DNA of 64,000 nucleotides. Source: Marsupella aquatica. Lineage: Eukaryota > Plantae > Marchantiophyta. The stretch is from assembly GCA_973895155.1 (NCBI GenBank), contig OZ316893.1, positions 26,586,798 through 26,650,797 of the forward strand, given 5' to 3'. Made by a program: the position numbers and the translations under genes. Positions 17,303 to 42,916 of this stretch are shown here, one piece after another. The notes beneath the pieces were generated by a model. That model was not told the DNA's origin, did not search any database, and saw only the letters and a program-made list of their open reading frames with translations. How positions within the stretch are numbered: position 1 is the first letter of the stretch; each line of letters opens with the position of its first letter.

Positions 17303-17647
17303 TGTTGAGCATAGACGACAATCGCAACGGCAAGCCCATGAACCATCCAATGCACAAGAGTCAACATAGAGAGATACGTGGTTCACTTCCACATGAGACT
17401 ACGTCCTCGGGAACACACATGAGCTTTATTGCACTCTAGGTTGACCGGCCATACCAAGCATCCACATCGCAAGCTCTCTCTATCTCTCAACTAGCTTCGT
17501 AACAATGAGCCTGAGTTCCCACTCTCCAAGCAAACACCGTTTGGTAATAGAGTGTGCACAACATGACTAACCTAACCAAGTCTGTGACTAAGATTAGCCT
17601 TAACTATGGTACAGTCGTAACTCTAGACATAAGAGTAAATCCAAACA
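17303..17647 (-). repeat. Copia 3' LTR (345 bp)
   Basis: About 90% identical to 33489-33834 by manual count, mostly transitions; preceded on the minus strand by PPT AAGGGGGAGGT (17648-17658). Confidence 0.95.
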
Positions 17648-17838
17648 ACCTCCCCCTTGACTCTGGTCTAGGGGAGGGTAAAGACTATTACCAATATGAT
17701 TGCTCAGTAGGAAGTTCTCGAAAGAAAAACCAAACCGGTTTTTCCCTCTTTAGACGAGAGTAGACCAGAACTAAGCCGTAGCCTATACAAGGAATGAGCA
17801 AGAGCATATCTCAGTATCTACACAAATGTTAAGTAACC

Positions 17839-18651
17839 CTACTTGTGAGGCAATTGCAAAACCTGAAACGCATCACGGTGTCTAGAAAAACTCTCCAAAT
17901 GAATCACTTTGGTAAAAACATTAGTCGGGTTGAGTTTACCGTCAATCTTGACTAGCTCAAATATATTATCAGACACAGCCTGCCTTATAAAATGGTATCT
18001 GACTTCGATGTGCTTCACTTTGCTGTCCATCACCTGGTTCATAGCAAGGTGGAGTGCACTCTGACTATCACAATGGAGCTTCACATTCCCCTGTGGCAAT
18101 CCCATCTCAGTGATCAATCTATCCAACCAAATCGCTTCCTTTGTTGCTTCTGCTGCAACATACTCCGCTTCTGTAGTAGATTGACCAATACACTTCTGCA
18201 AAGTAGACCTCCAACTTATGCATCCACCGCCAAGTGTGAACACGTAACCTGTTGTTGACCTCCTCCGATCCAGATCCTGTGCATAGTCAGCATCTACATA
18301 GCCCATCAATGATCTAGCATTATCAGCATGTGCATCCAAAAATAGACCATGATCCACGGTACCCTTCAAATACCAAATAATCCACTTCACTGCTTCCCAG
18401 TGTACCTTCCTTGGATTTGACATGTACCTGCTCACCTTGCCCATAGCCATGGCAAGATCAGATCTAGTGCAAGTCATCAAATACATGAGACTCCCCACTG
18501 CCTTGTCATAATGAACCTTTGATATCAGCCCCTTCTCTGTCTCATCCGTAAGACAGAAAGCTTAGAACGACAACTTGAAATGTGGAGCCAACGGGGTACT
18601 TACTGGCTTGCTATCCCCCATGTTGAACCTTGCAATTACCTTCCTTGCATA
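17839..18651 (-). pseudogene. Copia pol 3' part: end of RT and RNase H
   Basis: VGSLMYLMTCTRSD, GYVDADYAQDLDRRRSTTGYVF, STTEAEY, LHCDSQSA and KHIEVRYHFIR motifs. Confidence 0.93.
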
Positions 18652-18787
18652 TGTCGTGCGCATACACATCGCTATACAACATACATCGCTTGTCACACAT
18701 ATCCAAGCATAGTCACAATCTAACGACACAAACCCAAGAGAATGATCTACAAATGGAACCCATGTCCATACATGCCCAAAACCCACA
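18652..18787 (-). repeat. Terminal repeat segment A (136 bp), extreme 3' end of the gypsy element
   Basis: Matches 19119-19254 with 2 substitutions; sense strand reads TGTGGG...GCACGACA. Confidence 0.93.
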
Positions 18788-18788
18788 A

Positions 18789-19254
18789 TAATCTTCTTCA
18801 ATAGTGCAAATCGAACAACGATCGGTGCTAATCCAACAACGATCCCATCCGACGCGATCACACATGTATGTCAAGCCCAACGCACCTTGTGCTTCAAGGA
18901 ATCCACGTTACATGCACACAACCTGGTCAGCCACACCATAGCCACCAAGCTCATGCTCAAAGGCTCAACATTGAAAGATGAGGCCTTTGAGCCAACACAA
19001 GGGGATAACTATCCCTCACACAAACTCAAACTAAACATAGTGCTCATGTGCACACATACAAACCTCTATACCTAGATAGTACGATATACTTTACTATCAC
19101 TCTAAATGGTGTGACAGCTATCGTGCACATACACATCGCTATACAACATACATCGCTTGTCACACATATCCAAGCATAGTCACAATCTAACGACACAAAC
19201 CCAAGAGAATGATCTACAAATGGAACCCATGTCCATACATGCCCAAAACCCACA
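18789..19254 (-). repeat. Putative complete 3' LTR: segment A (19119-19254) + GC + segment B (18789-19116)
   Basis: Preceded on the sense strand by PPT-like CTAGAGGGGCGAT (19255-19267); B matches 27605-27935 with 3 substitutions, 1 indel and loss of the terminal CA. Confidence 0.88.
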
Positions 19255-19429
19255 ATCGCCCCTCTAGCTGAAAGTGAGGTCCCCTAACTCTAGCTAGCCA
19301 TGAGTTCTACAAGGTTGATATACACCTTTTTAGGTGTGAAGATCAGGAGGCTGGGTGCAAGTGAGCCCCATCGATCACCTACCTGCAATCTATATCTTCC
19401 ATGAGAACACAAATGATAACTAGTCGGCA

Positions 19430-20512
19430 TCACCGACATTGAGGACACAACCATGATCCACTAGGAATCATGTGCAAGGGTGGTGTCAAACAAGACATGT
19501 GCCATCCTCTAGAACACCGATCACAAATCAACATAGTAACTGCTCCCTGAGCAGACCCACACAACATACACTTCAAGCCAGCACGAACCTGTGCCAAGCT
19601 TGGATCCACAGTACCATCAATGTTTGGAAGATGACATGGCGCACAATTACGCACATGATCCTTCCAAACCATACCATCACACCCTTCCAATATAAGGACT
19701 CCAGAAGGCAACACTTCACGCACACGTAAGATTGTCCGCCCTGCGGTCACATCAAGCATCGTTGGTGCTGTTTGCTGCAAATAAACATAATCGCCAGGAT
19801 GAAATCTTCTAATCCTCGTGCGATAACCTCCTCCACGAATAGTAGCATACCGCAAAGTATCACGATGTTGGGCAATAGCAAGGTTGTCAAAGGCCATGGG
19901 CATGACTCTCTCAAAAACTTGTGCCCTGTCTGAACAAACCTTGACCCAAACATCTGGGTCATCCAAATCCACAACAGTTGTAACATCACGATGAATAGCC
20001 GCTGGCAAATCTGGTTCTCTACCATAGAGCAAGAAATAAGGTGAAAAGGATGCAAGTGATGCTTGTCGACTAAAACGGTAGCCCATAGCTAACCAAGATA
20101 GTTGGAGATCCCAGTCTCCCAAATGACCAACCTGCAAGCCATACTTACGCAATCCTCTCTTCATAGTTTGTACAACTCTCTCTGCCAATCCATCTGCCTC
20201 AGGATGATCGCGAGAAGTAGTACGATGATCAATCAGAGCTTGCTCACACAAACCCTCAAAATCTCCACGGAATTCCGTGCCCTGATCAGTCAACACCTTA
20301 GCTGGTGCTCCAAAATGACTGAGTACTCGATCCAAAAATGTGGTAGCCACTCCTCCACTAGCTTTATCTAGCAATGCCACTAGTTCAATCCACTTGGAGA
20401 AGTGCTCCACCATAACCAAAACATACCGATTGTGACGTTGGGTAAGAGGCAATGGACCAGCAAAGTCCAAACTCCATCGATATCCCAAACCCATGATCGG
20501 CAGCGGATGCAA
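19430..20512 (-). CDS. Gypsy DDE integrase core with C-terminal PHD finger (open segment of the polyprotein)
   Basis: WSLDFAG, VLTDQGTEF and DGLAERVVQT give the DDE triad; C4HC3 pattern CMLC...LICDRCSRGWHMSCLTPPL..IPSGSWLCPQC. Confidence 0.9.
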   Translation of the reverse strand: MHPLPIMGLGYRWSLDFAGPLPLTQRHNRYVLVMVEHFSKWIELVALLDKASGGVATTFLDRVLSHFGAPAKVLTDQGTEFRGDFEGLCEQALIDHRTTSRDHPEADGLAERVVQTMKRGLRKYGLQVGHLGDWDLQLSWLAMGYRFSRQASLASFSPYFLLYGREPDLPAAIHRDVTTVVDLDDPDVWVKVCSDRAQVFERVMPMAFDNLAIAQHRDTLRYATIRGGGYRTRIRRFHPGDYVYLQQTAPTMLDVTAGRTILRVREVLPSGVLILEGCDGMVWKDHVRNCAPCHLPNIDGTVDPSLAQVRAGLKCMLCGSAQGAVTMLICDRCSRGWHMSCLTPPLHMIPSGSWLCPQCR

Positions 20513-21412
20513 CTGGGGAGTGGGAGCATTGAACGATGCTCACACTCGATCACAAACCACATACTTAGTTATCAATTGCTGGACATCAGTGTGCATACCA
20601 CGCCACCAATACTGTGTGTGCAGCAAGCTATAAGTGCGCTTCACACCAAAGTGCCCTAACTCTTCGTGCGCATGTCGCACCAAATGTACTCGTTGTGACG
20701 GTTTTGGTACAACCAATACCTTCCCATCACGTAGTACCCTCAAAATATGGTTTCCTTCCCATCTAAATCTCTTGGCTCGTTGTAGAACCCTATCACGCTC
20801 CTTAGCATCAACATTGCCACCAATGGAGCCAACACGCAAATATTCCAACACTCTCACATCGTTGTGAATATCTTGCTGTCCAAAAACTATATCACCAACA
20901 TCCATATTGGAAGACTCATCATCTCCTCTATCCAATGAAGTAGAGTCTACATATCCAGTACATACTGGCACCCAACAAAGGAAAGCAGACGCATGCCATC
21001 CTGACACCATCTCCTTATCCGTCTCACCATGCCATCGGGCTCCAGTCTCATCCTCTTGACTGGTACATGGATTGCGGCTCAACCCATCCGCATCCAAATT
21101 CACTTTTCCAGGTCTATGCACAACCTGAAAATCATACTCCTGCAACAACAATGCCCATCGTGCAAGCTTCCCTCTAAGCTTGTCAGACTCCATTAACCAC
21201 TTGAGAGGTTGATGATCAGTGATCAAGGTGAACAAATTACCAAACAAATAGCAACGGAAATGTGCCACAGCCCACACTGCTGCCAAACACTCTCCCTCAT
21301 AAGAGCTATACTTAGCCTCTGCTGAATTGTTGGATCTACTGGCATACGCCACAACAAACTCACTCCCCTCATCATCCTTCTGAGTCAACACTGCTCCAAG
21401 CCCTACTCCACT

Positions 21413-22510
21413 CTAATCAGTGTGAAGCTGAAATGGTCGCCCTGAAATGGGTCTTCTCAAAATATGTGTTGACGCCAGTCTTTCCTTCAACTCCTGGAAA
21501 GCATGCTCCTGGTCGTCTTCCCAAATCCACTCTTGATCCAACTTAGTGAGTATAGTTAAAGGTTTAGCAAGCTGGCTAAATCCTTTAACATACCTCCTAT
21601 AGTAGCTCGCCAATCCCCAAAATGCACGAACTCTGCTCACATCAGTAGGATGAGGAATCTGTGTAATGGCCTCCACCTTAGTCTGTTGCACACCCAATCC
21701 TCCTGGGTAGATAGTGTGGCCCAAATACTCAATCTTCTCTTGAAAGAACTTACACTTGCCGGGATGGAGCTTCAATCCATGTTCCCTCAATCTCTCAAAC
21801 ACAATCTGCAAATGTCTCTAATGTTCTTCCACAGTAGAAGAATAAACCAAAATATCATCAATATAACATCTAACAAAATCCAAACCTGCAAGGATTCGAT
21901 CCATGACTCTCTGGAACTCAGCTGGTGCATTCTTCAACCTAAATGGTAAGAACAACCACTGATACAAATGATCTTTGCCATAAGAATCAATCCCCCAGAA
22001 TGCTGTCTTGGACCTGTCAGAATGCCTAATTGGCAACTGATGGTACCCCGCTCTGAGGTCCAACAAACTAAAAATCCTTGCATGCCCCACTGCATCAAAG
22101 ATCTCCTCCGGTGTGGGCATGGCATATCGATCAGATTTTGTCTGACGATTAATAGGCCGGTAATCACCGCACATTCGCCTATCCGTGTAATTGCCATGCA
22201 CATCCTTCTTGGCTGGCATCACTGTGGCAGATGCATACTCTCCGTATGAAATCTCCACCAAACCAGCTTCCAACAAATCCTGAGTTCTACTCTGGATCAA
22301 TGCCCTCTCCATATCACTATATCGATATGGTCGTCGAAAGATTGGTGCATCACTAGCCAATTCAATCTGAATACCAGGGCCCTTCAATGTTCCCAAATCC
22401 TTCATGCTAAATGCAAAACAATTCCAGTAACTCTTCAAGAATTGATGCATTCGACGTCTCTCACCCCCTGTCAACTTAGGGCCAATTTGTGGCTCCCAAC
22501 TCTCCATCAA
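21413..22510 (-). pseudogene. Gypsy reverse transcriptase with one internal stop
   Basis: RMCGDYRPIN, LDLRAGYHQ, LPFRLKNAPAEFQR, YIDDILVYS and KIEYLGH. Confidence 0.93.
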
Positions 22511-22555
22511 AGCTGTGATGTCTTCCTTTGGGGTTGAAGAGATAGTCGGTGGTTG

Positions 22556-24067
22556 CTATTTAGCAACAATTTGAGCAATCCCAACCTGCTCAACAATCTG
22601 TCCTGCCTTGGCCAATCCTGCCATAGGTCCATGGACTGTCTGCTCGCCCCTAGCTGCGGTCGCTACTGTCTCAATAGACCGCAAGCTCACCAATGGACGA
22701 TCAGTAACACCAAAAGAGCGCATCCGCAATTGTTCAGCTAATCCCAAGCTGATAATCCAAGTCAAGCAATTCAAATCCATGGCTTGACCAAGGACTTGGC
22801 GGCGTGAACTCTCTGACACAGAAGCAACTACAGTAGTGCCTGTCAAAAATCCCATAGCACGCTCTCTTTCATCAATAGTAGGTTCCACTAACTGCTGTAG
22901 AGCTGTATCCCATACAAGTCCAGGCCCACCTGCTCTAAATGCATATGAAGCAGAATGGCTCACAAAAATGGGGAATGCATAACGTGGGCGACCAACTACA
23001 TTGACCACTGCCAATGGAGGTCTGTCAGGCTGGGTCACACCTTGTGCACGACGCCCTGGATCCAAAATATCATCCACCACCAAGGTTGCTGAGCGAGGAA
23101 TGCTATCAAATGCTCGCTTCAACACCTCACAAGGTAACAAATTAGTCCACCACAAGCGTGGACGATGTGCACAAGAACCCACACGTGCAGCATCCAATAA
23201 CACAGCAGGTCCAATCCAAGACTTAACCTGATGAACGCTGGCAACAAGTCGATGACGATCATCACCCAATAATGGCATATTCTCCAAAATGTAGGCAGGG
23301 GAATGTGTCTGATGCAACTGAAGATGACGCAACACCCGTAACATCTCCCAAAACAATGCAGATCTTGGATCATGAAGTCCATGTCCAACTCCAGCTCTAG
23401 ATTGACCTTGACATGGCCAACCTGCAATCACCAAATCAATGGGGCCAACGCGATCCAGATGATCCGCCCCCAACAATGAAATATCAGCTGGTAATGCATG
23501 CTGATAACCACGAACGGCATCCACTGGCAACAATTGTGGGTAGCGTTCGACCAACAATGCCACATGACGTAATGAGACTCTACGTGCTGTCTCATCAGTC
23601 TCCACATACAAATAACGATGCACTGGAATGCCGGCTTGAAGAACGGCAGCCAATCCAGTGCTAATTCCACCAAATAAATCCAACAAACAAATACCCTCAT
23701 GTGGATATTGCCATGCAATAGGAGTAGTATCCAGTGGTGAAAGAGTCACTGGTCCATTTGCAGTTGATTGCTCTGCTCCTGATTGCGGTGTAAAAGCATG
23801 ACGCCATGCATCATGTATCAATCGGGCCGCACTTTGTGGCAAGGCCTGTCCAGTACCCCATACTGGTGTCACAACACTATCAATGGGCAATCCATGCATC
23901 AAGTGTTCCTCATGTGCCTCCTCCACCATAGGAACATCTACTGCATGTGCGTTACCCTCAATCAAATCATCAGCTCCAGTAATCAAACTACTAAATGCTG
24001 CCAAAGATAATGGTGCAGATTTGGGGCCTCCAACAGGTCCACTAAATCGCACGGGCAATTGACTCAA
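22556..24067 (-). CDS. Retrotransposon-encoded DNMT3-like C5-cytosine methyltransferase domain (about 22750-23700), open segment of the polyprotein
   Basis: Ordered motifs I LDLFGGI, II YVETD, IV DLVIAGWPCQ, V DPRSALF, VI ILENM, VIII AHRPRLWWTNL, IX ERERAMGF, X RRQVLGQAM. Confidence 0.9.
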   Translation of the reverse strand: MSQLPVRFSGPVGGPKSAPLSLAAFSSLITGADDLIEGNAHAVDVPMVEEAHEEHLMHGLPIDSVVTPVWGTGQALPQSAARLIHDAWRHAFTPQSGAEQSTANGPVTLSPLDTTPIAWQYPHEGICLLDLFGGISTGLAAVLQAGIPVHRYLYVETDETARRVSLRHVALLVERYPQLLPVDAVRGYQHALPADISLLGADHLDRVGPIDLVIAGWPCQGQSRAGVGHGLHDPRSALFWEMLRVLRHLQLHQTHSPAYILENMPLLGDDRHRLVASVHQVKSWIGPAVLLDAARVGSCAHRPRLWWTNLLPCEVLKRAFDSIPRSATLVVDDILDPGRRAQGVTQPDRPPLAVVNVVGRPRYAFPIFVSHSASYAFRAGGPGLVWDTALQQLVEPTIDERERAMGFLTGTTVVASVSESSRRQVLGQAMDLNCLTWIISLGLAEQLRMRSFGVTDRPLVSLRSIETVATAARGEQTVHGPMAGLAKAGQIVEQVGIAQIVAK

Positions 24068-26545
24068 TTGAGCATCTCCAGATTACCAATCAGGTCGGTA
24101 CGACACTGATTCATTCCAAAAATCAAGAACAAATCCCATAGGATAGAGAACTGTACATCCCACCAAGACATCATATGACTCAGCCTTAGTCAAAATAGCT
24201 CAAGCCTGGATCCGTGAGTTATCCTTTGAATGATCCTCCTAAATCCTGAGTTCAAGTGCTCGTCGAGTGATATGTTGTGTGGGTGTAGGTCCTCCCAATG
24301 AAGTCTGAATGGGAAAGGGACACTCCTCCAAGTCATCAGGATGCAATCCCAATCCTCTTATCGCAGACTTACCCAACACCAGTATCCAGTAACACTCGCT
24401 CTGGCTGGTATATTGCTCCAGAAGGCCCAACTAATCGGAAGATATCACTCTGATTATCCAACGATATGACGCTAGGTTTAAACCTAGTCCTCTCATAAGC
24501 AGGGCGCACGGGTAAATCTATCAACCTTGCCGCTGCTGCATGCCATGTTTCATTACTGGCAATAGGTGGATTCAACTCCATTGCTTCAGAATTGGGCGTT
24601 GCTTCTGCACGCGAAGCAACAGCTGGAGTGTCCTTGCATAATGTGGCCGCCAATCTGAACACCTCTGCTGGACTAACTCCCAATGTCAACATATCCATAG
24701 CTGAAAATAATGGCGTGCGCACTATAGTAGTGGCCACCCCCAACAAGGTACTTGTCATCCCTGTCACAACATCACTTGAATCCGCCAACTTACCCCCACC
24801 TGGGTTAGTCCGAACCGGATTCATAGAGGTAGTTTGAACTGCCTCTAACAATGTAAACGATTGGGGAAGCTTCGTTTGACGACAAATATCCCCTCTCTGA
24901 GGATCCAACTCTACCACTGCTCCTCGTGGCTCAAGGGCTTTAACTGCTCCTCGAGTCAAAGCTGCTGATGCATCAACATGCGCAGTGCCACACATAAATC
25001 CCATGGTGGCAAGATCTCCATCAGCTCCATAAGAGGTTGAAGCTCCATAGGATGTAGAAGCCCCATCACTAGCAGTAGGTCTAACTTGAGAACTAGCCAT
25101 TGCAGCTAGTTGTTGCTCCAATTGAGCAATCTTTGCATCTTTAGGATCTGTGGTAACGATAGGAGCAACATCACCTCCCTGTCTTCCTGCATGTGGCATG
25201 CCTCGATCACGTCCACCACCTCTAACTCCTCTTCCCTGATCATACGAACGTGATCCTCCCCGTCGTAGTTCAGGATGAAGTACAAAACACCTATCTTTGG
25301 TGTGTCCAGAAACTCCACAATGATCACACTGTCGTTGATCAGGCGTAGATGCCCCTCCTTGCCCCCTATTATCCGAGCAATATCTTTGGGCATGATCCCC
25401 ACCACAAGTCCAACATCCTGATTGTTGTCCAACATAAGAAGGCACAGGTCTCTAACTAGTAGATTCCCGTGTCGTAGGCTTCTCTCTCTGGCTCTTACGT
25501 GCAGTAGGTTGCGGTGTGGGCGTCGATGCAACCTTTGGTGCTTCCTTGGCAAATCCGGAAGTCACCACCTTCTCATTCACCATATTGAGCTCGATGCGCT
25601 CAGCAAGTGCAAAAACTATAACCAATGTGGGATCTGAATCCCTCAATAGAGTGGCATCTCTCACTCTACGACGCAACTCCCTATCCAGAATTGCATACCA
25701 AAATTGGACCGCTTGGGCCTCTGTCACTCCTTGTGTGACCGTAATCAATCTTCGCATACGAGTGTATGCCTCACGTAGGCTCTCTCCAGTCTTGCACTGA
25801 AACTCCTGAAGACCCTTCAACTTATCGGTTCTCACACCCTGATAGTTCTGCTTCAATACTTCAAAGAACTTCATCACAGGATTAAATGTTGGCGCAACTC
25901 CACTCCCAGCCACAATCACACCGGTAGGAGTAGCGGTGGATGCTGATGGAGTGCCACTCTGGCTAGTGCTACTAGAAGAAGCCGCAGCTGTAGCAATGGG
26001 TTGGGCAACCGCACTTGTGCCATAAGTGATGGACACATAGTTTGGTGACCAATGTTGTCTCCATGCCTCAATATCCACTAAATGAGCCTTTCGAAACTCA
26101 TGGTAGTCATCCATGGGTGGCCCCTCCAAATGCTGAAACAACCCTTTCCAAGCCATGAAAGGTGTGAACAATGTGGCATTACGCATTGTCTGCATATCAC
26201 ACCACGTATCAAACTCTTGGATGAAATCATCCAAATCAATCGTGCCAACTGCACCAGAGTATCTCCTCGGTCCTTTCGTGGCCCCATACATCTCTTCCAT
26301 ATCCCACAACAATGGAACAGTCACTTGATGTCGAGGAGAACTAGCTACTAACTCCTCGTCAGAATCACTATCTGAAACCCCACTTGTAGCCACTAACAAT
26401 GTTGTCGGCCAAAATTGCACTCCACTCTGAGTGAAACCAGACTGTCATCCCTCGGGTAGCCCCGTATCACCAGAGGACTCCGTGATGACCAATTTTCCCT
26501 AAATGGTCACCATCAACTCACCACTATCAATAATCAACCGATTGG

Positions 26546-26944
26546 CGGAACGGTGTTCCGCGGATACCAATCACTCAATCGCGGAAGGGTGTTCCGTAAT
26601 GCACCACCACCAATCTCCAAGACAATTGACGAAACAGTGTTCCGTCAATTGCTTAGTTGCGGGACAATGTTCCGCAACCAACCCTTCTTCACAACGTAGA
26701 CGAGATGTGTAATGGGGCAGACCAATCTTCAATATGCACCCACGACGGAATAGTGTTCCGTGGAAAACCAATCTTCCCAAAATTATCACAACAAAATGGT
26801 AATTTGTACCCGATCGTTCTCCAATATGCACTCACGACGGAACAGTGTTCCGTGGAAGACCAATCTTCCCAAAACTGCCACGATGGAACGGTGTTCCGCG
26901 GTCAACCAATCTCCAATATGCCCTCTCAACGGAACGGTGTTCCG
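26546..26944. repeat. Array of 8 palindromic CGGAAC-N3-GTTCCG motifs in the gypsy 5' leader
   Basis: Copies start at 26546, 26582, 26630, 26660, 26746, 26838, 26884 and 26930; partly 46 bp periodic; some copies have 1 mismatch. Confidence 0.85.
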
Positions 26945-27592
26945 TGGAAGACCTTCACAACCCTATTGCTGCGAAAACCCCGCCGCAATTCCCGGACAAA
27001 GTCTCTGTTCACTCACTTTGTCATTTTCCTTGTGCCCTAGGTCGCCGCCGCACCTCGCCTCTCCGCGGTGCACTATGTCGCCTCTCCGCGGTGCGCTATG
27101 TTGCCGTAGGGGACACAATTCGTCAACATCCAATGTCGCTTTCTTCAAAGAAATGCACTATCCGTCAACATCAAACTTGATGAATCTCAAATCCGCAACA
27201 TACAACTTCAATGATCAACCCCCGATTGGAACCATCCCCAACCAGAATCACAAACAATCACAAGTCCGACCAACTTGCCTTCACAAAACCGCAGCGAATA
27301 CTCTTAGCAATCCGCGCATAACAATCGACGATAACTTCCGATCATCGACCGCACATTCAGTCCTCCAAAATGCTACAATGTCGATCAATGCAAATCGCAA
27401 CTCCAAACGCGCAACTCAACAACTCAAAGCTCCGCATCCACTCGAGCTTTCTCAACACCAACTTGTAACAGATCGAGATACTAGCAATCCGTTCAACAAC
27501 AAAACCCGATCCGAGATACCACGAATCGTCAACAACAAAACTTCAACGAAATCGAACTTCTATTTGCACGATCCGTACATCAGAATTCGAAG

Positions 27593-27607
27593 CTGATCTT
27601 TCAATGT
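27593..27607 (-). promoter_or_regulatory. Putative self-priming primer binding site of the gypsy element
   Basis: No TGG tRNA-type PBS; 27596-27607 ATCTTTCAATGT is the exact reverse complement of 27786-27797 inside the LTR (14/15 when extended). Confidence 0.65.
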
Positions 27608-27935
27608 AATCTTCTTCAATAGTGCAAATCGAACAACGATCGGTGCTAATCCAACAACGATCCCATCCAACGCGATCACACATGTATGTCAAGCCCAACG
27701 CACCTTGTGCTTCAAGGAATCCACGTTACATGCACACAACCTGGTCAGCCACACCATAGCCACCAAGCTCATGCTCAAAGGCTCAACATTGAAAGATGAG
27801 GCCTTTGAGCCAACACAAGGGGATAACTATCCCTCACACCAACTCAAACTAAACATAGTGCTCATGTAGCACACATACAAACCTCTATACCTAGATAGTA
27901 CGATATACTTTACTACCACTCTAAATGGTGTGACA
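27605..27935 (-). repeat. Gypsy 5' terminal repeat, segment B only (331 bp)
   Basis: Sense strand TGTCACACC...ATTACA; about 99% identical to 18789-19116. Confidence 0.93.
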
Positions 27936-27939
27936 CATA

Positions 27940-30900
27940 ACTGCCCTACGTCAAGCATAGCTTGCCAGCCTCCAAGTCCCTAGTGATCTCCATACCCAAA
28001 ATCCTCTTAGCTGGCCCTAAGTCCTTCATCTTAAACTCTGCACTAAGCAGTGCCTTGAGCTTAACAATCAGTGGTGGACCTCGCCACCCAGCGCCCTCAC
28101 CAATCCCAGCACTTGCGCCTAAGTGCCCAAACGCCTCCACGGAATACCTCGAGCAAGCATCCCAGTGCCTCTAGCACCACCTGCGGCCCCTCCCATACGA
28201 AGTCGCACCTGCTCACCTACACGACCGCTACTCAACGGTCCTCACAGCCTGCACAAGCAACCAAGCACCTTGGTAAGTAACCCCTCAAGATCTAGAACTC
28301 GCCAAGTCTAGCCTCCTAACTCAAGCTCAACAGACGTTGGTAAATAGATCAGTGATAGGTCCTCCCGATGCCATAAGCCGAAACCAGAACTCACACCCAC
28401 TGTCCGTCCAGGACAGTTCCTTCCTTGGGCGCGGCCCGGGTTTCCCCTCGTACCTATCCATCACCAACTGACCGCCTTGACCTCAGGACATGCTCATGGC
28501 CCAAATAGCGTAGCTTGTCCTTGACCCGACCCGACCAGCCATAGGCTAGTCCAAGTCCTTAGTGTGTGTTCCCAGCTTGGCCCCTTGCCTCGCCAGTGCC
28601 ACGCCTCACTGCCCACAAGTCTGCCCATGCTAAGTCCTTCCCGGATGGCCTATCCGGGCCTGGACCATAAGGGAGCTCGGCGTCGGAGTCAATGACGCCG
28701 GAACTAAGTATTAAGGTAGTCGAGTTCCGCGACTCAATCTCAGATCTATCCTTGGCCACAATAAGCATGTCATCCACATAAAGTACTAAAATAATAAACC
28801 CAAAGACAACATTCTTCATCGGTTTAAGATACACACATGAGTCAAACACACTCTTGTGAAAGCCATGTGCACGAATCCAATCATCAAACCGCTTATTCCA
28901 CTGCCTTGGTGATTGCTTCAACCCATATAAAGATTTCAACAATCTGCAAACCAAATCCTCTTGCCCTTTCTTCACAAAACCTAGCGGCTGTCTCATGAAG
29001 ATCACCTCTTCTAAGGTGCCATAGAGGAAAGTTGTGACAACATCCATCTGATTTAGCAGCAAACCAAACATAACAACAAGCACACACAATAGCCGTATTG
29101 TTGAGTACTTAGCAACTGGTGAGAAAACCTCATTGTAATCCACACCTTTTTCTTGTGTGAATCCCTTGGCTACCAACCTAGCCTTGTAGACCTTTGATCC
29201 ACCTCCCGTGGATTGATCCTTCAACTTGTATACCCACTTGCTGTCCCTCAGGTAGCTTGACAAGCTCCCAAGTTTTGTTGTCCTTCAGTGACTGCATCTC
29301 CGTTTGCATTGCTGCAGTCCACTCCTGCTTCTTCTTAGAAGCACTTGCCTCATGAAATGAAGAAGTGGAATATCAACGCATCACCCTCATCATCAGTAAC
29401 AAAATCCTCCTCTTGCAATTGAGATGAATCAACCCACTGTCCATACCTTGGTGGAGCGCGTACAGTGCGAATCTTGGTGGAGCGCGTACAGTGCGACCAA
29501 ATGTTCTTCTAGATGATGACTTTGGTTGATCTATGTGTGCTAGTATAATCTGAAGCTCAACAACATCCACTTGCTGCTCACCAACATCAACAAATTCCTC
29601 TGGTTTTTTTGGCACAAGAACCAACTCCATAAATTGGATCAACTCTTTCTCTTTGGTCATGCACCTCATGACCAATCTCCCCCTCAATGAGATCCGGGAA
29701 ATGAGATTTTCCTTTGTGAGTACGGGAGACCTGAGTCTTCTCCCCCTCCTTTAATAATCTGGATTCATTGAAGGAAACATCCCTACTGACAACCAACTTA
29801 CAGGCAATAGGATCCCATAGCCTATAGGCCTTCACACCACTCTGGTACCCAAGAAAAACACATTTCTTATAGGTAGGATCCAACTTGATCCTATTTTGCT
29901 TTGGTGTGAGAGCATATGCATCACTTCCAAAAACTACCAAGCCATGATAGTCTGTTTGCCGCTTATAGTGCATCTCAAACGATGTTTTGAAATTGATAGC
30001 ACAAGAAGGAGAAAGGTTTACCAAATAAGCTACGATATTAACAGCTTCTACCCAAAATTCTTGTGATAAACCAGATTGGCTCAACATACTCCGTGATCGC
30101 TCCAATAGTGTCTGATTGAGGCTCTCAACGACACCATTATGCTGCGGAGTATAAATCATGGTGAGATGACAAGTTATCCCCTATTCTGAACAGTACCCTT
30201 CAAATTCCACTGAAGTGTACTCCCCGTCGTTGTCTGACCTCAGACTCTTCATTCTTTTATCCAAACACTTGACCGTGTTTCCAGTCTGATTCTCCATCTG
30301 GGCCTCCTACTTCTTAAAAATGGACAAGACATCAGACTTATGCGTCATGAAATACATTCACACAAATCTTGAATAATCATCAATAAATGATACATAGTAC
30401 AACTTTCTAGAGTGTGAGGGAGTCAGAGATGGACCCACACGTCACTATATATGTACTCAAGAATCGCTTTAGAACGATGAGTTCCAACACCAAAAGCATG
30501 ACGATGCTTCTTTCCAAGAATGCAATGACAGAACTCTAATTTACAAGATTGCAAATAAAAAATGAGTCCATTCTTCCGTAAGATAGCCAAACTCTTCTCA
30601 CTCATGTGGCCTAGCCGTGAATGCCACAGTTGAGTCATCTCCTTGTGAGACTTGGTTACATTGGCCTCTCCACATACAATATTGCCCTGCAACACATACA
30701 AATTCTTTTATCTGCTCCCCTTCAAAATCACTCTCTCCCGACCTGACTTGAAGTTCACCCATCAATAACGCTCCATCGATGACCATTTGAATCCAACACA
30801 CCGAGTGAAATTAGATTCTTACGCATGCCAGGTACATACCTGACTCCGAATATAGTGCGCATAGCGCCATCAAACATTTGAATCTTCAGCACCAATACCC

Positions 30901-32035
30901 TTAATTTGACAAGAGTGATCATTCCTATCAGAACTGAATCGTTTGAAATAGAGTAAGAACTGAAAAACTCATGAATGTAACAAATGTGAAAAGAGCAAGC
31001 ACAATCAAGAATCCACAGATCATCTGCTCTCCTAGATGACGTGCACAGGGCATACCCCTGGCTTCATAATACATACTCATCATGGAGTAAATCAACATCT
31101 CCATCAACCCTAGCCACATTTGCCGATGAAGATTCAGTTGCCTTTCCCTTATAGTCTCGCTTGAAGTGTCCAACCTTGTTGCACTTCCAACATGTCACCT
31201 ACCTCCTCTAAGGGGATTTTCCCCTGGACTTAGATCTGGATTTAGATCTAAACTGGGTTCTACGGTCCCCAGTTGGTCGCTGCATACTCCTCCCACGGTT
31301 AACATTGAGGGCAATACCGGATGATGAAGGCTGTGACGTGATGTGCATCTTCTATTGAAGATCATCACTAAGCAGAGAACTTACCACGTCATTGTATGAA
31401 ATGATATCTCTATCACAATGCAACAACACCCGTGATAGGGACTGGTAAGATGGAGACAATGAATTGAGAAGTTGTAGAGTCTTCGTTTCATCATTCAAAG
31501 TCTCCCCAAGGTTTTCCAAGTCAACGACCATGTCGTTGAAAGCATCCACGTGGTCCTGCAACTTCGTACCGGTTTTCTTCATCCTTAAACTCATCAGTTT
31601 GTAGGAAGTGTAGAGTCGGTTCGATAACTCCTTGCGGTGATACTTGCTCTGCAATTTTTCAAGCAAGGACATGCAATCCTTATGTGCACCCAACTGTTTG
31701 ATGATGGGAGGCATGAGATAGAGTGTACCACACCACACTCCTTGCTCCTGCATGCGGTCCCTTTGTTTCTCATTAACATTGTCTTCACGAGGGCTCAACA
31801 ATTGGCCCATCCTTGAAGCATAGAGCACTCTCTTCACCTGCTTCTCCCATAGTAGGTAGTCAGAGCGCCCATCATACTTTGTCACTTCATACTTGGGTCC
31901 CCCAAGCTTGAACGTCCCCATCTTCTTCTTTTGCACTACCGTGAGTTCCGGTAGTAGAACAACTTCCTCCACCACATGCCGCACCGGTGATGGTACCGGT
32001 GTCACGTACTCTTCCTCCTGCTCCTCTCTCTCCAC
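27940..32035 (-). pseudogene. Copia gag-protease-integrase-RT, frameshifted and interrupted by a 665 bp insertion
   Basis: gag YDGRSDYLLWEK and LLNSLSPSY; knuckle CWKCNKVGH; protease WILDCACSFH; LWHSRLGHMSEK; TPQHNGVVE; KCVFLGY; YKARLVAKGF; LYGLKQSPRQW; LYVDDML; MKDLG. Confidence 0.93.
28070..28734. mobile_element. 665 bp GC-rich insertion (solo LTR or MITE-like) with AGT...ACT termini
   Basis: 5 bp TSD CAATC (28065-28069 and 28735-28739); excision restores copia RT DRSEIVKLKAL; imperfect terminal inverted repeat AGTGGTGGAC / AGTCGCGGAA. Confidence 0.85.
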
Positions 32036-33474
32036 CTCAAAATGTCACGGTGATCCTCGTGCTTCAAGTTTCACGTCTTCAAAAATCTCCTTCGAATCAT
32101 TCATATAAGAAAATCAGGAAAAAATATCATTTTTCACAACATCTCAAAAAACTCAAAACTAATCACCACCGCGTAGCCCACAAAGCTAGGAGTCCAACAC
32201 TGAAATCCAAAATCAAAATCAAAATCGGACGGAAAAGTTATTCAAATTTTGATCGGGGTGGGTAAAACCTTGGAAAATTCCCCCATTTTTACCACCTCAG
32301 GGAATAACCAAAATGCCAAGTACAACCCATCGTCGGAATTGCAATTCAATTGGCGTGCCGCGTTGCTAACTTCAATGGCTATGACCTTGCCAAAAAGGAA
32401 CCAAAAAAATTACCGCTTGGTGCGTGGAATCTTTGTCGGACAACTGAAAACACGCTCTCTATTTTTTTCAAAATATTCTATGTATAGTAGAGCAGGTCTC
32501 ACAAGGGGCCATTCCCCCTGTCCAAGCGGTTAAATCCGGGGGTTACCGGGCCCGGGACAGCCAATTACAAATGCCAAGAGGGAAAAACAAAATATTGGCC
32601 CCTAAAAGGAGGTTGAAGCCCCTTTTGAAAAAACAGGCGTATTTAGGGGGGGCGGGTATGCACATACGCGACGAGGGTGTATGGCCGGGCTGAGTCAAGG
32701 GCGCATGCAGGATACGAAGGGCAAAAGGGAGGGGGAAAATGGCCATACAAAAAAATTGCCCTCAAGTAACCCCCCAAAATGCCAATTTAATCACAAAAAA
32801 AAGGCTGGTTACAAACCTTGCCGCTGTCGCTTTACACAAGCAAAGTGAACATCGTTGACGGGAAAAGTTGCCAAATCACAGTGGCTCAGTCTGCAAGCTC
32901 AGTAGAGGAAAAACTTTTCGTCATGTTGCCTTCACTCCGAGTGAAGTGCCAATCTCGGACTCATAACAACCACTTCACGGCGATCTCTCCGTTGAGCCCT
33001 AGCACTTTGTGTTTCTTCCTCCGAGTCGGACGTGACAACGAGTAACCCGGTTCAGATGAGAACAAGCTCCATAGCCTGTGAAAAAATCTGAACGCCTCCT
33101 TCACTCATCACGACACACTCGGTAACCACTCGGCAGTAACTCAGCTACCGAAATGACCAGCTTGCTTCAATCTTCAACTTGAGCTACAACATGCAACGCC
33201 TTGTGCACCGCAAAGCTCACATTGTTGCAAAAACAAACTTTGGTCTCTCCCCCAAAATACCGTCGAACACGAAAAACTCCAGATCGACGCAAACTCCAAT
33301 TCCTCCACACCACTGATACCAACCAGTGAGTTCTATGCACCGATAGAAAGCCCTCTAACTAATCTATTTGCTTAGCCACACACATTCGAGTTTCATGCGA
33401 CGAAACTCCGAATGCAACACTGACAATGAACGCTGGAAAACCGTCACAAAAAAACCTTGTCACCTCCCAAACAT

Positions 33475-33486
33475 GCTCTAATACCA
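33475..33486 (-). promoter_or_regulatory. Copia primer binding site (tRNA-iMet)
   Basis: TGGTATTAGAGC, 1 mismatch to TGGTATCAGAGC, 2 nt from the 5' LTR. Confidence 0.9.
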
Positions 33487-33488
33487 AT

Positions 33489-33834
33489 TGTTGAGCATAG
33501 ACGACAATTGCAACGGTAAGCCCATGAACCATCCAACGCACAAGAGTTGACACAGAGAGATACATGGTTCACCTCCACATGAGGTTACGTCTATGGGAAC
33601 ACACATGAGCTTTACTTCACTCTAGGCCGAACGACCATACCAAGCGTCCACAGTGCAAACTCTCTCTATCTCTCAACTAGCTCCGTAACAATGAGCCTGA
33701 GTTCCCACTCTCCAAGCAAAACACCGCTTGGTAATAGAGTGTGCACAACATGACTAACCTAACCAAGTCTACGACTAAGGTTAGCCTTAACTACGGTACA
33801 GTTATAACTCTAGACGTAAGAGTAAATCCTAACA
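33489..33834 (-). repeat. Copia 5' LTR (346 bp)
   Basis: Pairs with 17303-17647; TG...CA ends; adjacent PBS. Confidence 0.95.
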
Positions 33835-34914: not shown

Positions 34915-35542
34915 AGCCAAATTCCGTGGCAAGAGGAAGAATTGCGATCGCACACTAGCTTAGTAGTGTTCACTTCCTCGTGTTCTCCTCTCTCCTCGCC
35001 TCTCCTCTCTCCTCTCCTCTCCTCTCCTCTCCTCTGCCATAACCACGACGACGACGAGCTCGGCGGGACGATGATACAGAGGAGGTACGGCGTGTGAACG
35101 AGACGAGACGTTCGTTGGAGAGTTTGGCCTGCCATCACGGGAGATTCAATTTTATAAACTACTTCTTCATTCTGCGGGTCAGGTCTAGTGATGTAGCAGC
35201 TGGAGTTTCCGAGAAGGGTATGGAATCGATGGACGGAAACCCAGAAAGCAGGTTCTGGCGTCGGGCGGTGAGGGAGGGAGGGAGGGAGAGAGAAAAGCTG
35301 CTCGAGAAGTGGTGTTGCGTTCGTGCCGTCTTGCTTTGAATGTCGTGGGATTCTAATCCTCGTTGGTATCGCAGCGGAGTTGTGAAGAATTGCCAGTCAG
35401 GGCGAATACGATCAGGGGAGAGGAGAAGAGTTCGTATCACGCTAGAGATTCAGGCCAATTTCTGAGAAAGGGAACTGGATTTTAGGGCTGGTGGTGCGTC
35501 TTCTTATCCAGTTGACCTTAGATCGATGCGAGTGAAGAAGAG

Positions 35543-38113
35543 ATGGAGGAATCGAAGAAGGAGATGAAGGTGTATGTTCATTACGAAGGCTCGCCCGAGT
35601 ACACGCACGTGGCGAGGATAACCTGGGGCCTTACCGTAGAACAGCTCGCCGTGGAGTTCACACGCGTCTACAATGCTAAGCATGGGCGGTTGGTTTGCCT
35701 TGATCCGGCGATGATCCACCTTCTGAATGGAAGGCGTCGGATGTCAAAATCGGCCAACTTAATACGACTTGTGAAGGATAGGTCTGATATTTTCGTGGAA
35801 CGGGAAAGTCCTAGTAGTGCTGCCGGCTTGGGTCGGCCAATTGAGCAGAGCTTGTCATCCAGAGTTGAGGAGAATAAATTGAAGAAGGAATTGTCACTGA
35901 GAGAAGAGAAGAGCAAATCGAAGCAGCGAGTTATCTTGAGACAGAAGGAAAGAGCACCGAAAGGAGAATTGGCCTCTGCAGTTTTTGATCAGGAGCAAGA
36001 GTTAGCGATTGAAGCGGACCTGGCCTCCGCTGTCGAAAAAGTTGCTGGAGAGGGCCAGGAACTCCAAGAGCCTTTCATCTGTGCTCTGCTGGTGAGTGCA
36101 ATTAAGGCCCAACAGCTAAAGAAGTACAGCTTTGCAGGTAAACTGTTCTCAAAAGTCTTGTACGTTCTTCCCAAACAAAAAATTTGCTTAAGGGGATTAG
36201 CCTCTATGGCACTTGTAATTCGTAAGTATTCCGAGGCAATTGAATGGCTACAGCGTGGTGTGGAGGAGTACCCGAGGGATGCTCTCTTTCATGCACGATT
36301 GGGTGATGCATATTCAGGTCTCGACAAGTACGACGATGCACTCAGTGAGTATGACCTTGCATTGGGTCTCGCTTTGGAGGATAAAACTGTAGAGATTGCC
36401 AATGTGGACGGCTCAGCTTTATCAAACCTTAAAATGGAATTAGGAGTACCACAAAATGTTTTGGAGAGGCTTCAATGCGATCCGCGGCTCGTCCAGGATC
36501 CCAGCGCTGGAGACATTCTGGGTGCCATCTCTGTGGATGGATTACAGATTTCTTCTGCAGCAGCCCTTGGTAAGCAGGGAAACATTGAAGCGGCAGATCG
36601 CATTCTCAAGTCAATTTTGGGTCAAAATGCTGAAAATTCTGATGCTTTATATGAGTATGGGACTCTTCTCTTTGGTCTTGATCATGTCAAGGAGGCATTG
36701 AAAATTTTCCTCAAGCTACTGGTTTCCAAGCCAGAAAATAAAAGAGTTCGCTCCAGTGTCTCAAAGGCAATCAAGCACCAACAAGGTATGGAACTATTGA
36801 AGAAGCAAGTTGCAGTGGAGCCCGCAGCAGCTCCGGTCCTTGCATATCTTGCCTCGTGTGTAAAGGATTATGGGGCAGTTGACGAAGCAATAGAGCTTTA
36901 TGGTATTGCAATTAAGTTGTCTCCTTTATCAGTGGGCTACTATCTGAGCTTAATTCATCTGTATGAGGTGATGTATGAGTACCTGAAGGCTATCGGGTTA
37001 GCAGTCTCACTCTTTGGAAGCTTCCCATCTTTCTCTTTAAGCAAGCTCCAATTCAGTGACGTTATGCGGTATTTTGAAGGTCCCAACTGGACTGAATCTC
37101 CTGACGACATTAGTCAACAATGTCAATATCAGGGTTTGAAGTTCCTGGCCCGTGCGGAGTTTTTTAGATGGTTTGATGATTTACCAGCACAGAAGCAAAC
37201 AAAGATCACAGGAATTGGTTCTGATTCAAGGAACGGCTCTGAAATCAAGGAACAGGGAGTTAATTGTACGTATGATGACCCACAGCTGGATGGCCTCGCA
37301 GTGTTGTTCACTGTAACGAAAATTCTTTTTGTTGGTGGCGCAATTGAACGTGCTCAGCACTTGGCAAGACTCATAGAGCCTGCAAGACTTGCATCAAGTA
37401 AACCGCTGCATCAGACACTTATTCGCAACGAGGCTGCTTACTTCACCTCTGTAAAGCAGATTCTGGAGCAGTATCCTATACCAACTCCACTTCCGCCTCT
37501 GAAAGAATATGCGCCTCTCTATCTCGCTGGAGACAGCCACTGCTTGTCAGCAGCATGGAGGAAAGTGCGCTTGCGAGGCCAGAATCGCTTGCTTGTGCCC
37601 ATGCTTGTCACTGGTCTGAAGGTGTGGCACCTTCGTCCAGAGAGTCAGTTCTATCCCAAATATGCATTTGAAAACGTTATGCAGAGTGTGGCAGATGGGG
37701 CTCAACTTGTGATGGTGTATGGAGAAATTGACTGCCGAGAAAGCATAATAGCCGCAGTAGAGAAAGGAATTTATAAGACCGAGGAGCACGGAGTAGAGGT
37801 TGTTGTTAATATCTACCTTGAGGTCCTCCAACAGCTCATTTTCAGTAGGGGTTTTGAGCTCTTTGTGCATCCAGTGCCACCAGTATTAAATGAAACACGG
37901 GCAATAGTACTCATTTTTAACAGGATTCTCAAGGGAAGACTAGAAGCTCTCAAGGGGAGGAGTGCTGCTGGCAAACGACTCCATTGGCTTGACTTTGCGC
38001 CCGACTTGCTAACAGCTGAAGGCCTTCTGAAAGAGCAGTTCAAACTGGATGGAACGCACTTGAGTCCAAAATATTCTGCGCTTCTACACCGGGAGCTTGG
38101 TAAAGTTAAGTAA
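35543..38113 (+). CDS. Intronless 856 aa TPR-repeat protein with C-terminal SGNH/GDSL-like hydrolase domain and possible N-terminal ubiquitin-like domain
   Basis: Long ORF; TPR-like helices (ARLGDAYSGLDKYDDALSEYDLAL, ALYEYGTLL..LDHVKEALKIF); SGNH blocks LAGDSH, YGEIDCRE and LDGTHL. Confidence 0.85.
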   Translation: MEESKKEMKVYVHYEGSPEYTHVARITWGLTVEQLAVEFTRVYNAKHGRLVCLDPAMIHLLNGRRRMSKSANLIRLVKDRSDIFVERESPSSAAGLGRPIEQSLSSRVEENKLKKELSLREEKSKSKQRVILRQKERAPKGELASAVFDQEQELAIEADLASAVEKVAGEGQELQEPFICALLVSAIKAQQLKKYSFAGKLFSKVLYVLPKQKICLRGLASMALVIRKYSEAIEWLQRGVEEYPRDALFHARLGDAYSGLDKYDDALSEYDLALGLALEDKTVEIANVDGSALSNLKMELGVPQNVLERLQCDPRLVQDPSAGDILGAISVDGLQISSAAALGKQGNIEAADRILKSILGQNAENSDALYEYGTLLFGLDHVKEALKIFLKLLVSKPENKRVRSSVSKAIKHQQGMELLKKQVAVEPAAAPVLAYLASCVKDYGAVDEAIELYGIAIKLSPLSVGYYLSLIHLYEVMYEYLKAIGLAVSLFGSFPSFSLSKLQFSDVMRYFEGPNWTESPDDISQQCQYQGLKFLARAEFFRWFDDLPAQKQTKITGIGSDSRNGSEIKEQGVNCTYDDPQLDGLAVLFTVTKILFVGGAIERAQHLARLIEPARLASSKPLHQTLIRNEAAYFTSVKQILEQYPIPTPLPPLKEYAPLYLAGDSHCLSAAWRKVRLRGQNRLLVPMLVTGLKVWHLRPESQFYPKYAFENVMQSVADGAQLVMVYGEIDCRESIIAAVEKGIYKTEEHGVEVVVNIYLEVLQQLIFSRGFELFVHPVPPVLNETRAIVLIFNRILKGRLEALKGRSAAGKRLHWLDFAPDLLTAEGLLKEQFKLDGTHLSPKYSALLHRELGKVK

Positions 38114-42800: not shown

Positions 42801-42916
42801 TGGAGGTATCACTTAAAGGAGACAATGGCAGCAACCACTTTCGAACCTTTTCTCTCCAACAGTAAAGTTCTACAAAACATTCGTCAAACATAATGCAACA
42901 AGTGCCATTGTAAGCA

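What the first reader, a model, noticed from the sequence alone, without database searches (positions are those of the whole stretch)
22556..24067. Gypsy retrotransposon carries its own DNMT3-like DNA methyltransferase inside the polyprotein
Seen: a C5-MTase domain with its main motifs in order and the catalytic PC intact (23411-23416). It has no internal stop and lies in frame between the protease and RT. Its motifs (LDLFGGI.TG, AHRPRLWWTNL, ERERAMGF) resemble DNMT3 more than DNMT1/CMT and are not permuted as in DRM. Known: canonical gypsy pol has no MTase, though retrotransposon-borne DNMTs were reported in dinoflagellates and a charophyte alga (de Mendoza et al. 2018). Inference: the enzyme would be packaged and released by the protease and could methylate the new cDNA, for self-silencing or camouflage. 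A young copy in a land plant suggests a recently active lineage.
Basis: partly seen in the sequence, partly recalled or inferred. Interest (0 to 1): 0.9.

Follow-up and report, generated by a model that had tools for sequence, protein, structure and literature searches.

The report
Retrotransposon methyltransferase before a leaky stop
This is a dead copy of an abundant liverwort jumping gene that carries its own DNMT3-like DNA-methylating enzyme, a kind of element so far described from one alga, and a stop codon shared across its relatives just after the enzyme likely makes the element produce it in bulk with its capsid protein rather than with its copying enzymes.

Summary
Confirmed: a DNMT3-like C5-methyltransferase (Pfam PF00145, catalytic PC at 23411-23416, fold closest to DNMT3A/3B) lies between protease and RT of a Ty3/Gypsy element (18652-27935, minus strand) in a leafy liverwort. 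It is family-wide and under purifying selection. It shares domain order and the odd A-coding-B-A-B repeats with KnitGypsy-Dnmt3 of Klebsormidium (de Mendoza 2018). This scan already noted such elements in moss DNA. Corrections: this copy is dead (7 further stops, one frameshift), and the enzyme is not fused to RT. A stop follows it in 29 of 30 related loci that span the junction, 28 with the readthrough context stop-CAR-YY (background 7 of 517 other stops); one intact relative has it as its only stop in 2,417 codons. The enzyme therefore ends Gag-protease and is likely made at capsid level, with RT-integrase-PHD made by readthrough; splicing is not excluded. A sister clade lacks the stop, and chlorophyte relatives carry the domain between RNase H and integrase. 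Activity, substrate and readthrough are untested. New variant of a known kind.

The parts
18652..27935 (-). Whole Ty3/Gypsy element, ends TG...CA, layout A-coding-B-A-B
   Evidence: empty-site joint 18647/27936 in contigs of 3 of 4 runs; ends and repeats
27936..27939 (-). 4-bp target-site duplication, 5' copy
   Evidence: same 4 letters at 18648-18651
18648..18651 (-). 4-bp target-site duplication, 3' copy
27607..27935 (-). Repeat A1 (5' end of the element)
   Evidence: 98.8% identical to A2 over 329 columns
26283..26300 (-). Likely start of Gag (first Met that aligns with the start of Marchantia ORF1 proteins)
25302..26300 (-). Gag with two CCHC knuckles (from 25415 and 25328); broken by a stop at 25452-25454
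   Evidence: no Pfam hit; matches the N-terminal part of P0003/P0004 and clade-1 loci at 50-60%; 0 of 18 related loci share the stop
24092..24473 (-). Aspartic protease, LLDTG at 24378-24392, frameshifted right after it; further stops at 24239-24241, 24200-24202, 24083-24085
   Evidence: Pfam protease hits (below the curated cut-off in L021, at it in L036) in relatives
22739..23692 (-). DNMT3-like C5 cytosine methyltransferase domain, open, catalytic PC 23411-23416
22550..22558 (-). Conserved stop TAG followed by CAA CCA (stop-CARYYA readthrough context)
   Evidence: consensus from PMC5397192
21713..22498 (-). Reverse transcriptase, YIDD 21854-21865; stop at 21818-21820
   Evidence: PF00078
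21074..21433 (-). RNase H; stop at 21413-21415
   Evidence: PF17917 E 2e-32
20027..20674 (-). Integrase, zinc-binding and core domains; stop at 20540-20542
   Evidence: PF17921, PF00665
19436..19570 (-). PHD finger at the integrase C-terminus
   Evidence: PF00628 E 1.4e-10; nearest solved PHDs CHD4, KDM5B PHD1, DPF3, PHF21A
19257..19265 (-). G-rich polypurine-tract-like stretch directly before B1
   Evidence: G-runs at the same place in relatives
19119..19256 (-). Repeat B1; its end, 2 spacer bases (19117-19118) and the start of A2 copy the two outer ends of the element
   Evidence: 99.3% identical to B2 over 136 nt; junction motif in 12 loci
18789..19116 (-). Repeat A2
18652..18789 (-). Repeat B2 (3' end of the element)
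17303..33834 (-). Older copia element into which the Gypsy element is inserted
   Evidence: LTRs 17303-17647 and 33489-33834, 90.2%; RVT_2, copia gag, SH3

Best explanation
This is a dead, recently inserted copy of an old green-plant Gypsy family whose DNMT3-like methyltransferase ends the Gag-protease reading frame at a conserved stop, so the enzyme is likely made in capsid-level amounts while RT-RNase H-integrase-PHD is likely made by occasional readthrough of that stop. Shown: domain, fold, family-wide presence, purifying selection, conserved stop and its context, repeat layout, target duplication. Inferred, in falling order of confidence: the stop is programmed (about 0.95); it is passed by ribosomal readthrough (about 0.75), giving roughly 10-20 Gag-protease-DNMT chains per full-length chain; the enzyme is an active de novo cytosine methyltransferase (about 0.7); it is packed with Gag, cut free by the protease and methylates the element's own new cDNA, most likely at CG, so that the insertion arrives already marked (about 0.55). 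The PHD finger likely steers integrase to chromatin. The A-coding-B-A-B layout likely comes from an ordinary (BA)-coding-(BA) cDNA closed into a circle and opened by integrase at an internal B|A site.
For: Stop at the junction in 29 of 30 clade-1 loci that span it (37 examined, 7 end or are deleted before it), 28 with stop-CAR-YY; 27 and 26 of 28 after removing two duplicate pairs. Only 7 of 517 other in-frame stops in these loci have CAR-YY; the commonest decay stop elsewhere reaches 0.44 of loci. L021 is open for 1,369 codons (protease, DNMT), one TAG CAG TTA, then 1,047 codons (RT, RH, INT, PHD). Five lineages with otherwise poorly alignable linkers keep the motif, the second codon changing among Pro, Ser and Leu while staying YY, and the stop is in frame with the DNMT at six linker lengths (252-462 nt, all multiples of 3). 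In contigs of four runs laid on 22500-22620 no other letter is listed at 22553-22565, one contig lacks a base at 22555, and 22552 varies only between the two pyrimidines, while flanking sites vary. P0001 and P0054 end at the same residue as the window ORF; most long clade-1 database proteins end after the DNMT without RT. Stop-CARYYA is the consensus readthrough signal (PMC5397192); 6-10% readthrough for TMV in Arabidopsis (PMC2754532); 20:1 Gag:Pol rule (PMC2194720). DNMT dN/dS 0.032/0.258 for the open pair L021/L023 and 0.23/1.65 for window/L003. Catalytic Cys in 64 of 67, E 65 of 69, N 69 of 69 loci. DNMT and RT trees give the same three groups. Depth over DNMT bins is like that over RT bins.
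Against: No RNA, protein or activity data. The Sphagnum-like group mostly has CAACCC, one base off CARYYA, and an in-frame ATG two codons after the stop. The 20 bases before the stop are 55-70% pyrimidine, so TAG could serve as a splice acceptor; two NCBI gene models seen whole (P0008, P0036) join DNMT to RT across the site, at different points. Tca2 shows that an in-frame gag-pol stop need not be read through in a reporter (PMC2194720). The 43 clade-2 loci have no shared stop and chlorophyte-type relatives hold the DNMT inside Pol, so bulk production is not needed by the whole family. Among Sphagnum-like copies the DNMT is less constrained than RT (0.60 against 0.42; common non-C>T variants 0.43 against 0.11); several between-lineage dS values are near saturation. 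KnitGypsy-Dnmt3 showed no activity in yeast. CG depletion of the element (0.48-0.58) is not clearly beyond the copia neighbour (0.59) or host ORFs (0.57-0.85). The window has ENM where relatives have ENV.
Confidence: 0.6

Rival explanations
1. Same element and enzyme, but RT-integrase is made by splicing that removes the stop (TAG as 3' splice site), as recalled for Ogre elements between protease and RT, or by re-initiation or an internal promoter.
For: Moderate pyrimidine content before the TAG and a nearby ATG in the Sphagnum-like group; gene models that skip the site; Tca2 precedent for a non-readthrough bypass.
Against: Conservation lies 3' of the stop, as for readthrough; the linker stays in frame and open up to the stop in intact copies, with conserved residues right before it (pN 0.087, pS 0.153 over 110 codons, a weak signal); first in-frame ATG lies 2, 4, 16 or 47 codons on, or is absent within 60.
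Confidence: 0.2
2. The bulk-made enzyme acts mainly in trans, on genomic copies, rival elements or host chromatin, or binds DNA without needing catalysis, rather than on the element's own cDNA.
For: Capsid-level amounts exceed what one 9-kb cDNA needs (inference); motif IV reads EC rather than PC in 73 of 150 distant relatives and in clade 2; the fusion-to-RT argument for action in cis made by the authors of PMC5890265 (review file) does not hold for this clade.
Against: Cys, EN and RxR are kept; Gag-linked proteins are normally packed into the particle (established knowledge); no host-genome methylation data here.
Confidence: 0.15
3. The stop is ordinary decay (a hypermutable codon) and the domain a passenger in a continuous Pol.
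For: These copies are rich in C>T stops; some decay sites reach 0.44 of loci.
Against: 29 of 30 loci, five lineages, and the only stop in the intact L021; dN/dS 0.12-0.14 on the domain.
Confidence: 0.03

Closest known systems
KnitGypsy-Dnmt3 of Klebsormidium nitens (de Mendoza et al. 2018, PMC5890265; read: abstract, part 1, sections 9 and 11, passages, parts of the review file; the main supplementary file was too large to read)
   Same: Gypsy domain set with an intronless, unpermuted DNMT3-like domain under purifying selection; DIRS-like repeat layout; K. nitens protein GAQ93235.1 (P0169) has protease then DNMT and matches the window domain at 38%, E 4e-51.
   Different: Host is a land plant. 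The paper places the DNMT in the same ORF as RT and RNase H; here a conserved stop separates them (P0169 also ends 13 residues after the domain, but it is marked partial and its DNA was not seen). No PHD finger, stop codon or land-plant occurrence was found in its main text or review file.
SymbioDIRS-Dnmt3 and SymbioLINE-Dnmt of Symbiodinium (same paper)
   Same: Retrotransposon-borne DNMT; A-coding-B-A-B repeats in the DIRS form; de novo CG activity shown in yeast for two DIRS copies.
   Different: Tyrosine recombinase or LINE machinery, not a DDE integrase with 4-bp target duplications; described as independent captures.
TMV-type stop-CARYYA readthrough; MuLV gag-pol readthrough; SIRE1 and Tca2 in-frame stops (PMC5397192, PMC2754532, PMC2194720, PMC5009743; passages only)
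   Same: In-frame stop between a bulk upstream product and a rarer extended one; same six-base context as the TMV type.
   Different: Here the boundary lies after protease and a captured enzyme, not after Gag; readthrough not measured.
EpiLTRs and DAM-LTRs (bioRxiv 10.64898/2026.05.21.726589; passages only, supplements closed)
   Same: Gypsy-like elements with a DNA methyltransferase and a chromatin reader.
   Different: Their DNMT is reported as sister to DNMT4 and appended at the 3' end, with DAM and a chromodomain; the paper calls it distinct from streptophyte Gypsy-DNMT3.
Host DNMT3 (animal DNMT3A/3B; bryophyte DNMT3)
   Same: Fold and motif order.
   Different: 20-23% identity to DNMT3A/B in structural alignments; no PWWP or ADD; plant host DNMT3 could not be fetched for a tree.

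Membership tests
C5 cytosine methyltransferase, DNMT3-like | PF00145 above cut-off, motifs I-X with catalytic PC, EN, RxR | tested here: met
C5 cytosine methyltransferase, DNMT3-like | Unpermuted order and closer to DNMT3 than to DRM or bacterial enzymes | tested here: met
   (solved structures only)
C5 cytosine methyltransferase, DNMT3-like | Nests in the eukaryotic DNMT3 clade in a tree with host DNMT1, DNMT3, DRM, CMT | not tested
   no host DNMT sequence appeared among the listed hits
C5 cytosine methyltransferase, DNMT3-like | De novo methyltransferase activity | not testable with these tools
   bench assay needed
Ty3/Gypsy LTR retrotransposon | Order Gag-PR-RT-RH-INT, DDE integrase, TG...CA ends, short target duplication | tested here: met
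Ty3/Gypsy LTR retrotransposon | Two full LTRs at the ends and a tRNA primer-binding site after the 5' LTR | tested here: not met
   split repeats A-coding-B-A-B; no TGG-starting site after A1 in the window or six loci, read by eye; so not a canonical Gypsy in its ends
KnitGypsy-Dnmt3 type | Intronless DNMT3-like domain in a Gypsy coding region | tested here: met
KnitGypsy-Dnmt3 type | DIRS-like repeat structure | tested here: met
   both repeat pairs in the window and 6 of 20 loci examined, one pair in 5 more; definition
KnitGypsy-Dnmt3 type | Purifying selection on the DNMT (Ka/Ks under 0.2) | tested here: met
   0.12 and 0.14 between lineages or open copies; 0.34-0.60 among decayed copies
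KnitGypsy-Dnmt3 type | DNMT in the same ORF as RT and RNase H | tested here: not met
   same frame but conserved stop in this clade; met in clade 2; hence filed as a variant
KnitGypsy-Dnmt3 type | One clade with the K. nitens domains | tested here: inconclusive
   the 17 protease-DNMT rows, K. nitens included, fall on one side against 14 RNase H-DNMT rows, support 56 only; open fork; no outgroup
TMV-type programmed readthrough | Conserved in-frame stop followed by CARYYA | tested here: met
   exact in the window, L021, L023, L032, L034; CARYYC in most Sphagnum-like copies
TMV-type programmed readthrough | Measured readthrough product | not testable with these tools
   no RNA holder listed; reporter or proteomics needed

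The most novel reading that the evidence does not exclude
An ancient green-plant Gypsy lineage (chlorophytes, Closterium, Klebsormidium, mosses, liverworts) tunes the dose of its own methyltransferase by where it sits relative to a leaky stop, fills its particles with the enzyme, and integrates through a circle that the DDE integrase opens at an internal end-to-end junction; the conserved CG in that junction is methylated by the element's own enzyme to decide which of the two junction copies is cut.
Probability: 0.1. Interest if true: 0.88.

Novelty: new variant of a known kind. Interest (0 to 1): 0.62.

Why it matters
Why retrotransposons keep a cytosine methyltransferase is open; the published argument for action on their own cDNA rests on fusion to RT. 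This clade puts the enzyme on the Gag side of a conserved stop, while sister clades fuse it to RT or place it before integrase, so dose and position vary naturally within one family and can be compared. The family is annotated, unrecognised, in Marchantia polymorpha, a genetic model with methylation mutants, which makes the question testable in a land plant. It also warns that counts of DNA methyltransferase genes in bryophyte genomes include retrotransposon copies, and it links a DDE integrase to DIRS-like split repeats whose replication is unexplained.

Tried and rejected
No whole genome was held, so copy number and dN/dS within the host species were not computed; contig depth is no copy number. 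No RNA holder listed: no verdict on expression or splicing. A stem-loop 3' of the stop folds in single sequences (z -0.5 to -3.3 in five) but the alignment gives a weak covariation term (-0.52): not claimed. The tblastn tally split the junction stop over neighbouring columns (9 of 21 and 3 of 20) because the linker aligns poorly; the anchored count replaced it. Excess of stops over repeat age: 7 stops against 1.7 expected (range 0.35-5.0; P of 6 or more 0.008, up to 0.39), so inheritance from an already broken parent copy is possible but not shown. CG and CHG depletion did not separate the element from its neighbours. The protein atlas did not answer. Phygy/Selgy identity: passages of PMC6317226 mention neither PHD nor methyltransferase; not tested by sequence. 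No complex was predicted. Searches for print on bryophyte Gypsy-DNMT3 or on readthrough in these elements gave only PMC5890265 and the 2026 preprint as relevant; the library lacks most subscription papers, and unseen supplements of both papers may bear on novelty.

Full report
Observation. The minus strand holds a 508-codon open frame at 22556-24082 with a C5-methyltransferase domain (PF00145, E 1.2e-9). Motifs run in normal order with PC at 23411-23416. Its best solved relatives by sequence are DNMT3A and DNMT3B, well ahead of HaeIII, HhaI and DRM; a model of pLDDT 93.5 from a 50-row alignment matches DNMT3A/B/C first (TM 0.74). The frame is that of the protease before it and RT, RNase H, integrase and a PHD finger after it.

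Host and state of the copy. A host TPR gene at 35522-38113 is 86% identical to a Calypogeia fissa protein and 51% to one of Marchantia paleacea, so the host is most likely a leafy liverwort. The element spans 18652-27935, ends TG...CA, has a 4-bp target duplication and sits in a copia element with 90% identical LTRs. Its own repeats are 98.8% and 99.3% alike, so the insertion is young. It is dead: besides the stop after the methyltransferase it has 7 in-frame stops and a frameshift after the protease DTG; related loci share these stops in 0 to 4 of 17-24 cases.

A family, not an accident. Contigs of four public runs cover all 30 bins, with the DNMT bins as deep as the RT bins. Named relatives come from Marchantia polymorpha, Calypogeia fissa and several Sphagnum species. 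A metagenome scan gave 237 loci, of which the best 80 were kept; most show the order Gag-PR-DNMT-RT-RH-INT-PHD as far as the contig goes. The group L001-L031 is Sphagnum-like by sequence (about 90% to a Sphagnum protein). In the library of representatives 235 clusters match at E up to 1e-30. Among the best 150, two orders occur: protease-DNMT(-RT), with Klebsormidium nitens and Closterium among the named, and RT-RH-DNMT-INT-PHD (32 complete), with Scenedesmus named and Haematococcus. DNMT and RT trees give the same three groups; the grouping of all protease-DNMT forms is unsupported (56) and there was no outgroup. The domain is under purifying selection between lineages (dN/dS 0.12 and 0.14), though less constrained than RT among Sphagnum-like copies.

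The stop after the enzyme. The window reads TAG CAA CCA at 22558-22550. Of 37 clade-1 loci examined, 30 span the junction; 29 have a stop there (22 TAG, 7 TAA), 28 followed by CAR-YY; L017 has a Tyr codon and L031 a second stop. Two pairs are duplicates, leaving 27 and 26 of 28. Only 7 of 517 other in-frame stops have this context. L021 has this as its only stop between a 1,369-codon protease-DNMT frame and a 1,047-codon RT-RH-INT-PHD frame. In the host's own family the stop and the CAA after it show no listed substitution in four runs and the next base varies only between C and T. Stop-CARYYA is the consensus readthrough signal (PMC5397192, passage), gives 6-10% in Arabidopsis for TMV (PMC2754532, passages), and retroelements need about 20:1 Gag to Pol (PMC2194720, passages). 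I therefore read it as the element's Gag/Pol switch, placed after protease and DNMT. Against: most Sphagnum-like copies have CAACCC and an ATG two codons on; the upstream bases could serve a splice acceptor; no RNA was available. The 43 clade-2 loci show no shared stop, appear to be one long frame, and have EC for PC in motif IV.

The repeats. The layout is A-coding-B-A-B, the DIRS-like structure that the legend of Fig. 4c of PMC5890265 gives for KnitGypsy-Dnmt3. Both pairs occur in 6 of 20 loci examined, in both clades; 5 of these 6 show a 4-bp duplication, read by eye, two at one site. The internal B|A joint repeats the element's two outer ends with two bases between, in 12 loci and, with one change, in the window. 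A G-rich tract precedes B1, no tRNA primer site was seen after A1, and the A|B joint differs in 4 of 7 distinct clade-2 copies but in none of 3 clade-1 copies. My inference: reverse transcription yields (BA)-coding-(BA), the ends are joined into a circle, and integrase opens it at an internal B|A site. The B end holds a conserved CG; a role for its methylation is speculation.

How it likely works. Translation of the genomic RNA yields mostly Gag-protease-DNMT and, by readthrough, a little full-length chain. The enzyme would be packed with Gag, released by the protease and methylate the new cDNA, so that the copy arrives marked like host heterochromatin; the PHD finger, nearest to CHD4, KDM5B PHD1, DPF3 and PHF21A fingers (their preference for unmethylated H3K4 is recalled), would guide insertion away from active promoters. 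Activity is shown in print only for the dinoflagellate DIRS enzymes; the Klebsormidium one was negative and called inconclusive. The authors argued for action in cis from fusion to RT (review file); in this clade most enzyme would not be fused to RT, which leaves action in trans open.

Novelty. The kind is known from K. nitens. Eight literature searches found no paper placing it in land plants or describing the stop; later papers say only 'streptophytes'. The main supplement of PMC5890265 and the preprint's supplements were not seen. Earlier notes of this scan report the family in moss DNA; the few lines shown do not mention the stop, and word searches with 'readthrough' found none holding all words. 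Verdict: real feature, new variant of a known kind; interest 0.62.

Noticed in passing
loci L035, L036, L038-L080 (except L050, L061); proteins P0103-P0249: Motif IV reads EC instead of PC in clade 2 and in 73 of the 150 best distant relatives (PC in 45, no motif found in 20), with the Cys kept.
   Followed up: partly
P0040, P0042, P0043, P0136, P0282: Chlorophyte-type relatives carry the same DNMT between RNase H and integrase, with the same PHD tail, so the domain has changed place within one Gypsy lineage or was captured twice.
   Followed up: partly
L017, DNMT/RT junction: One decayed copy has a Tyr codon where the others have the stop; Tyr is the residue inserted at the TMV stop in plants. 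May be chance.
   Followed up: no
P0284 and P0053: Members of this plant retrotransposon family carry bacterial MAG labels (Obscuribacterales, Spirochaetia), likely contamination of those bins.
   Followed up: no
P0003, P0004, P0008, P0290, P0299: Marchantia and Sphagnum retrotransposon fragments are annotated as host genes, some named DNA (cytosine-5)-methyltransferase.
   Followed up: no
window 26726-26984: Imperfect 46-base tandem repeats in the long 5' leader of the element.
   Followed up: no
window 42914-51418 (+): A 2,834-codon open frame with 71-residue repeats (213-base unit at 46946-47884) and no Pfam hit; another 519-codon frame follows at 52024-53583.
   Followed up: no
window 35522-38113 (+): Single-frame TPR gene, 86% identical to a Calypogeia fissa protein; used to place the host.
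   Followed up: yes
window 8339-10738 (+): 799-codon charged, low-complexity frame without Pfam hit.
   Followed up: no
window 17303-33834 (-): Decayed copia element with 90% identical LTRs that hosts the insertion; empty-site contigs exist in 3 of 4 runs.
   Followed up: partly
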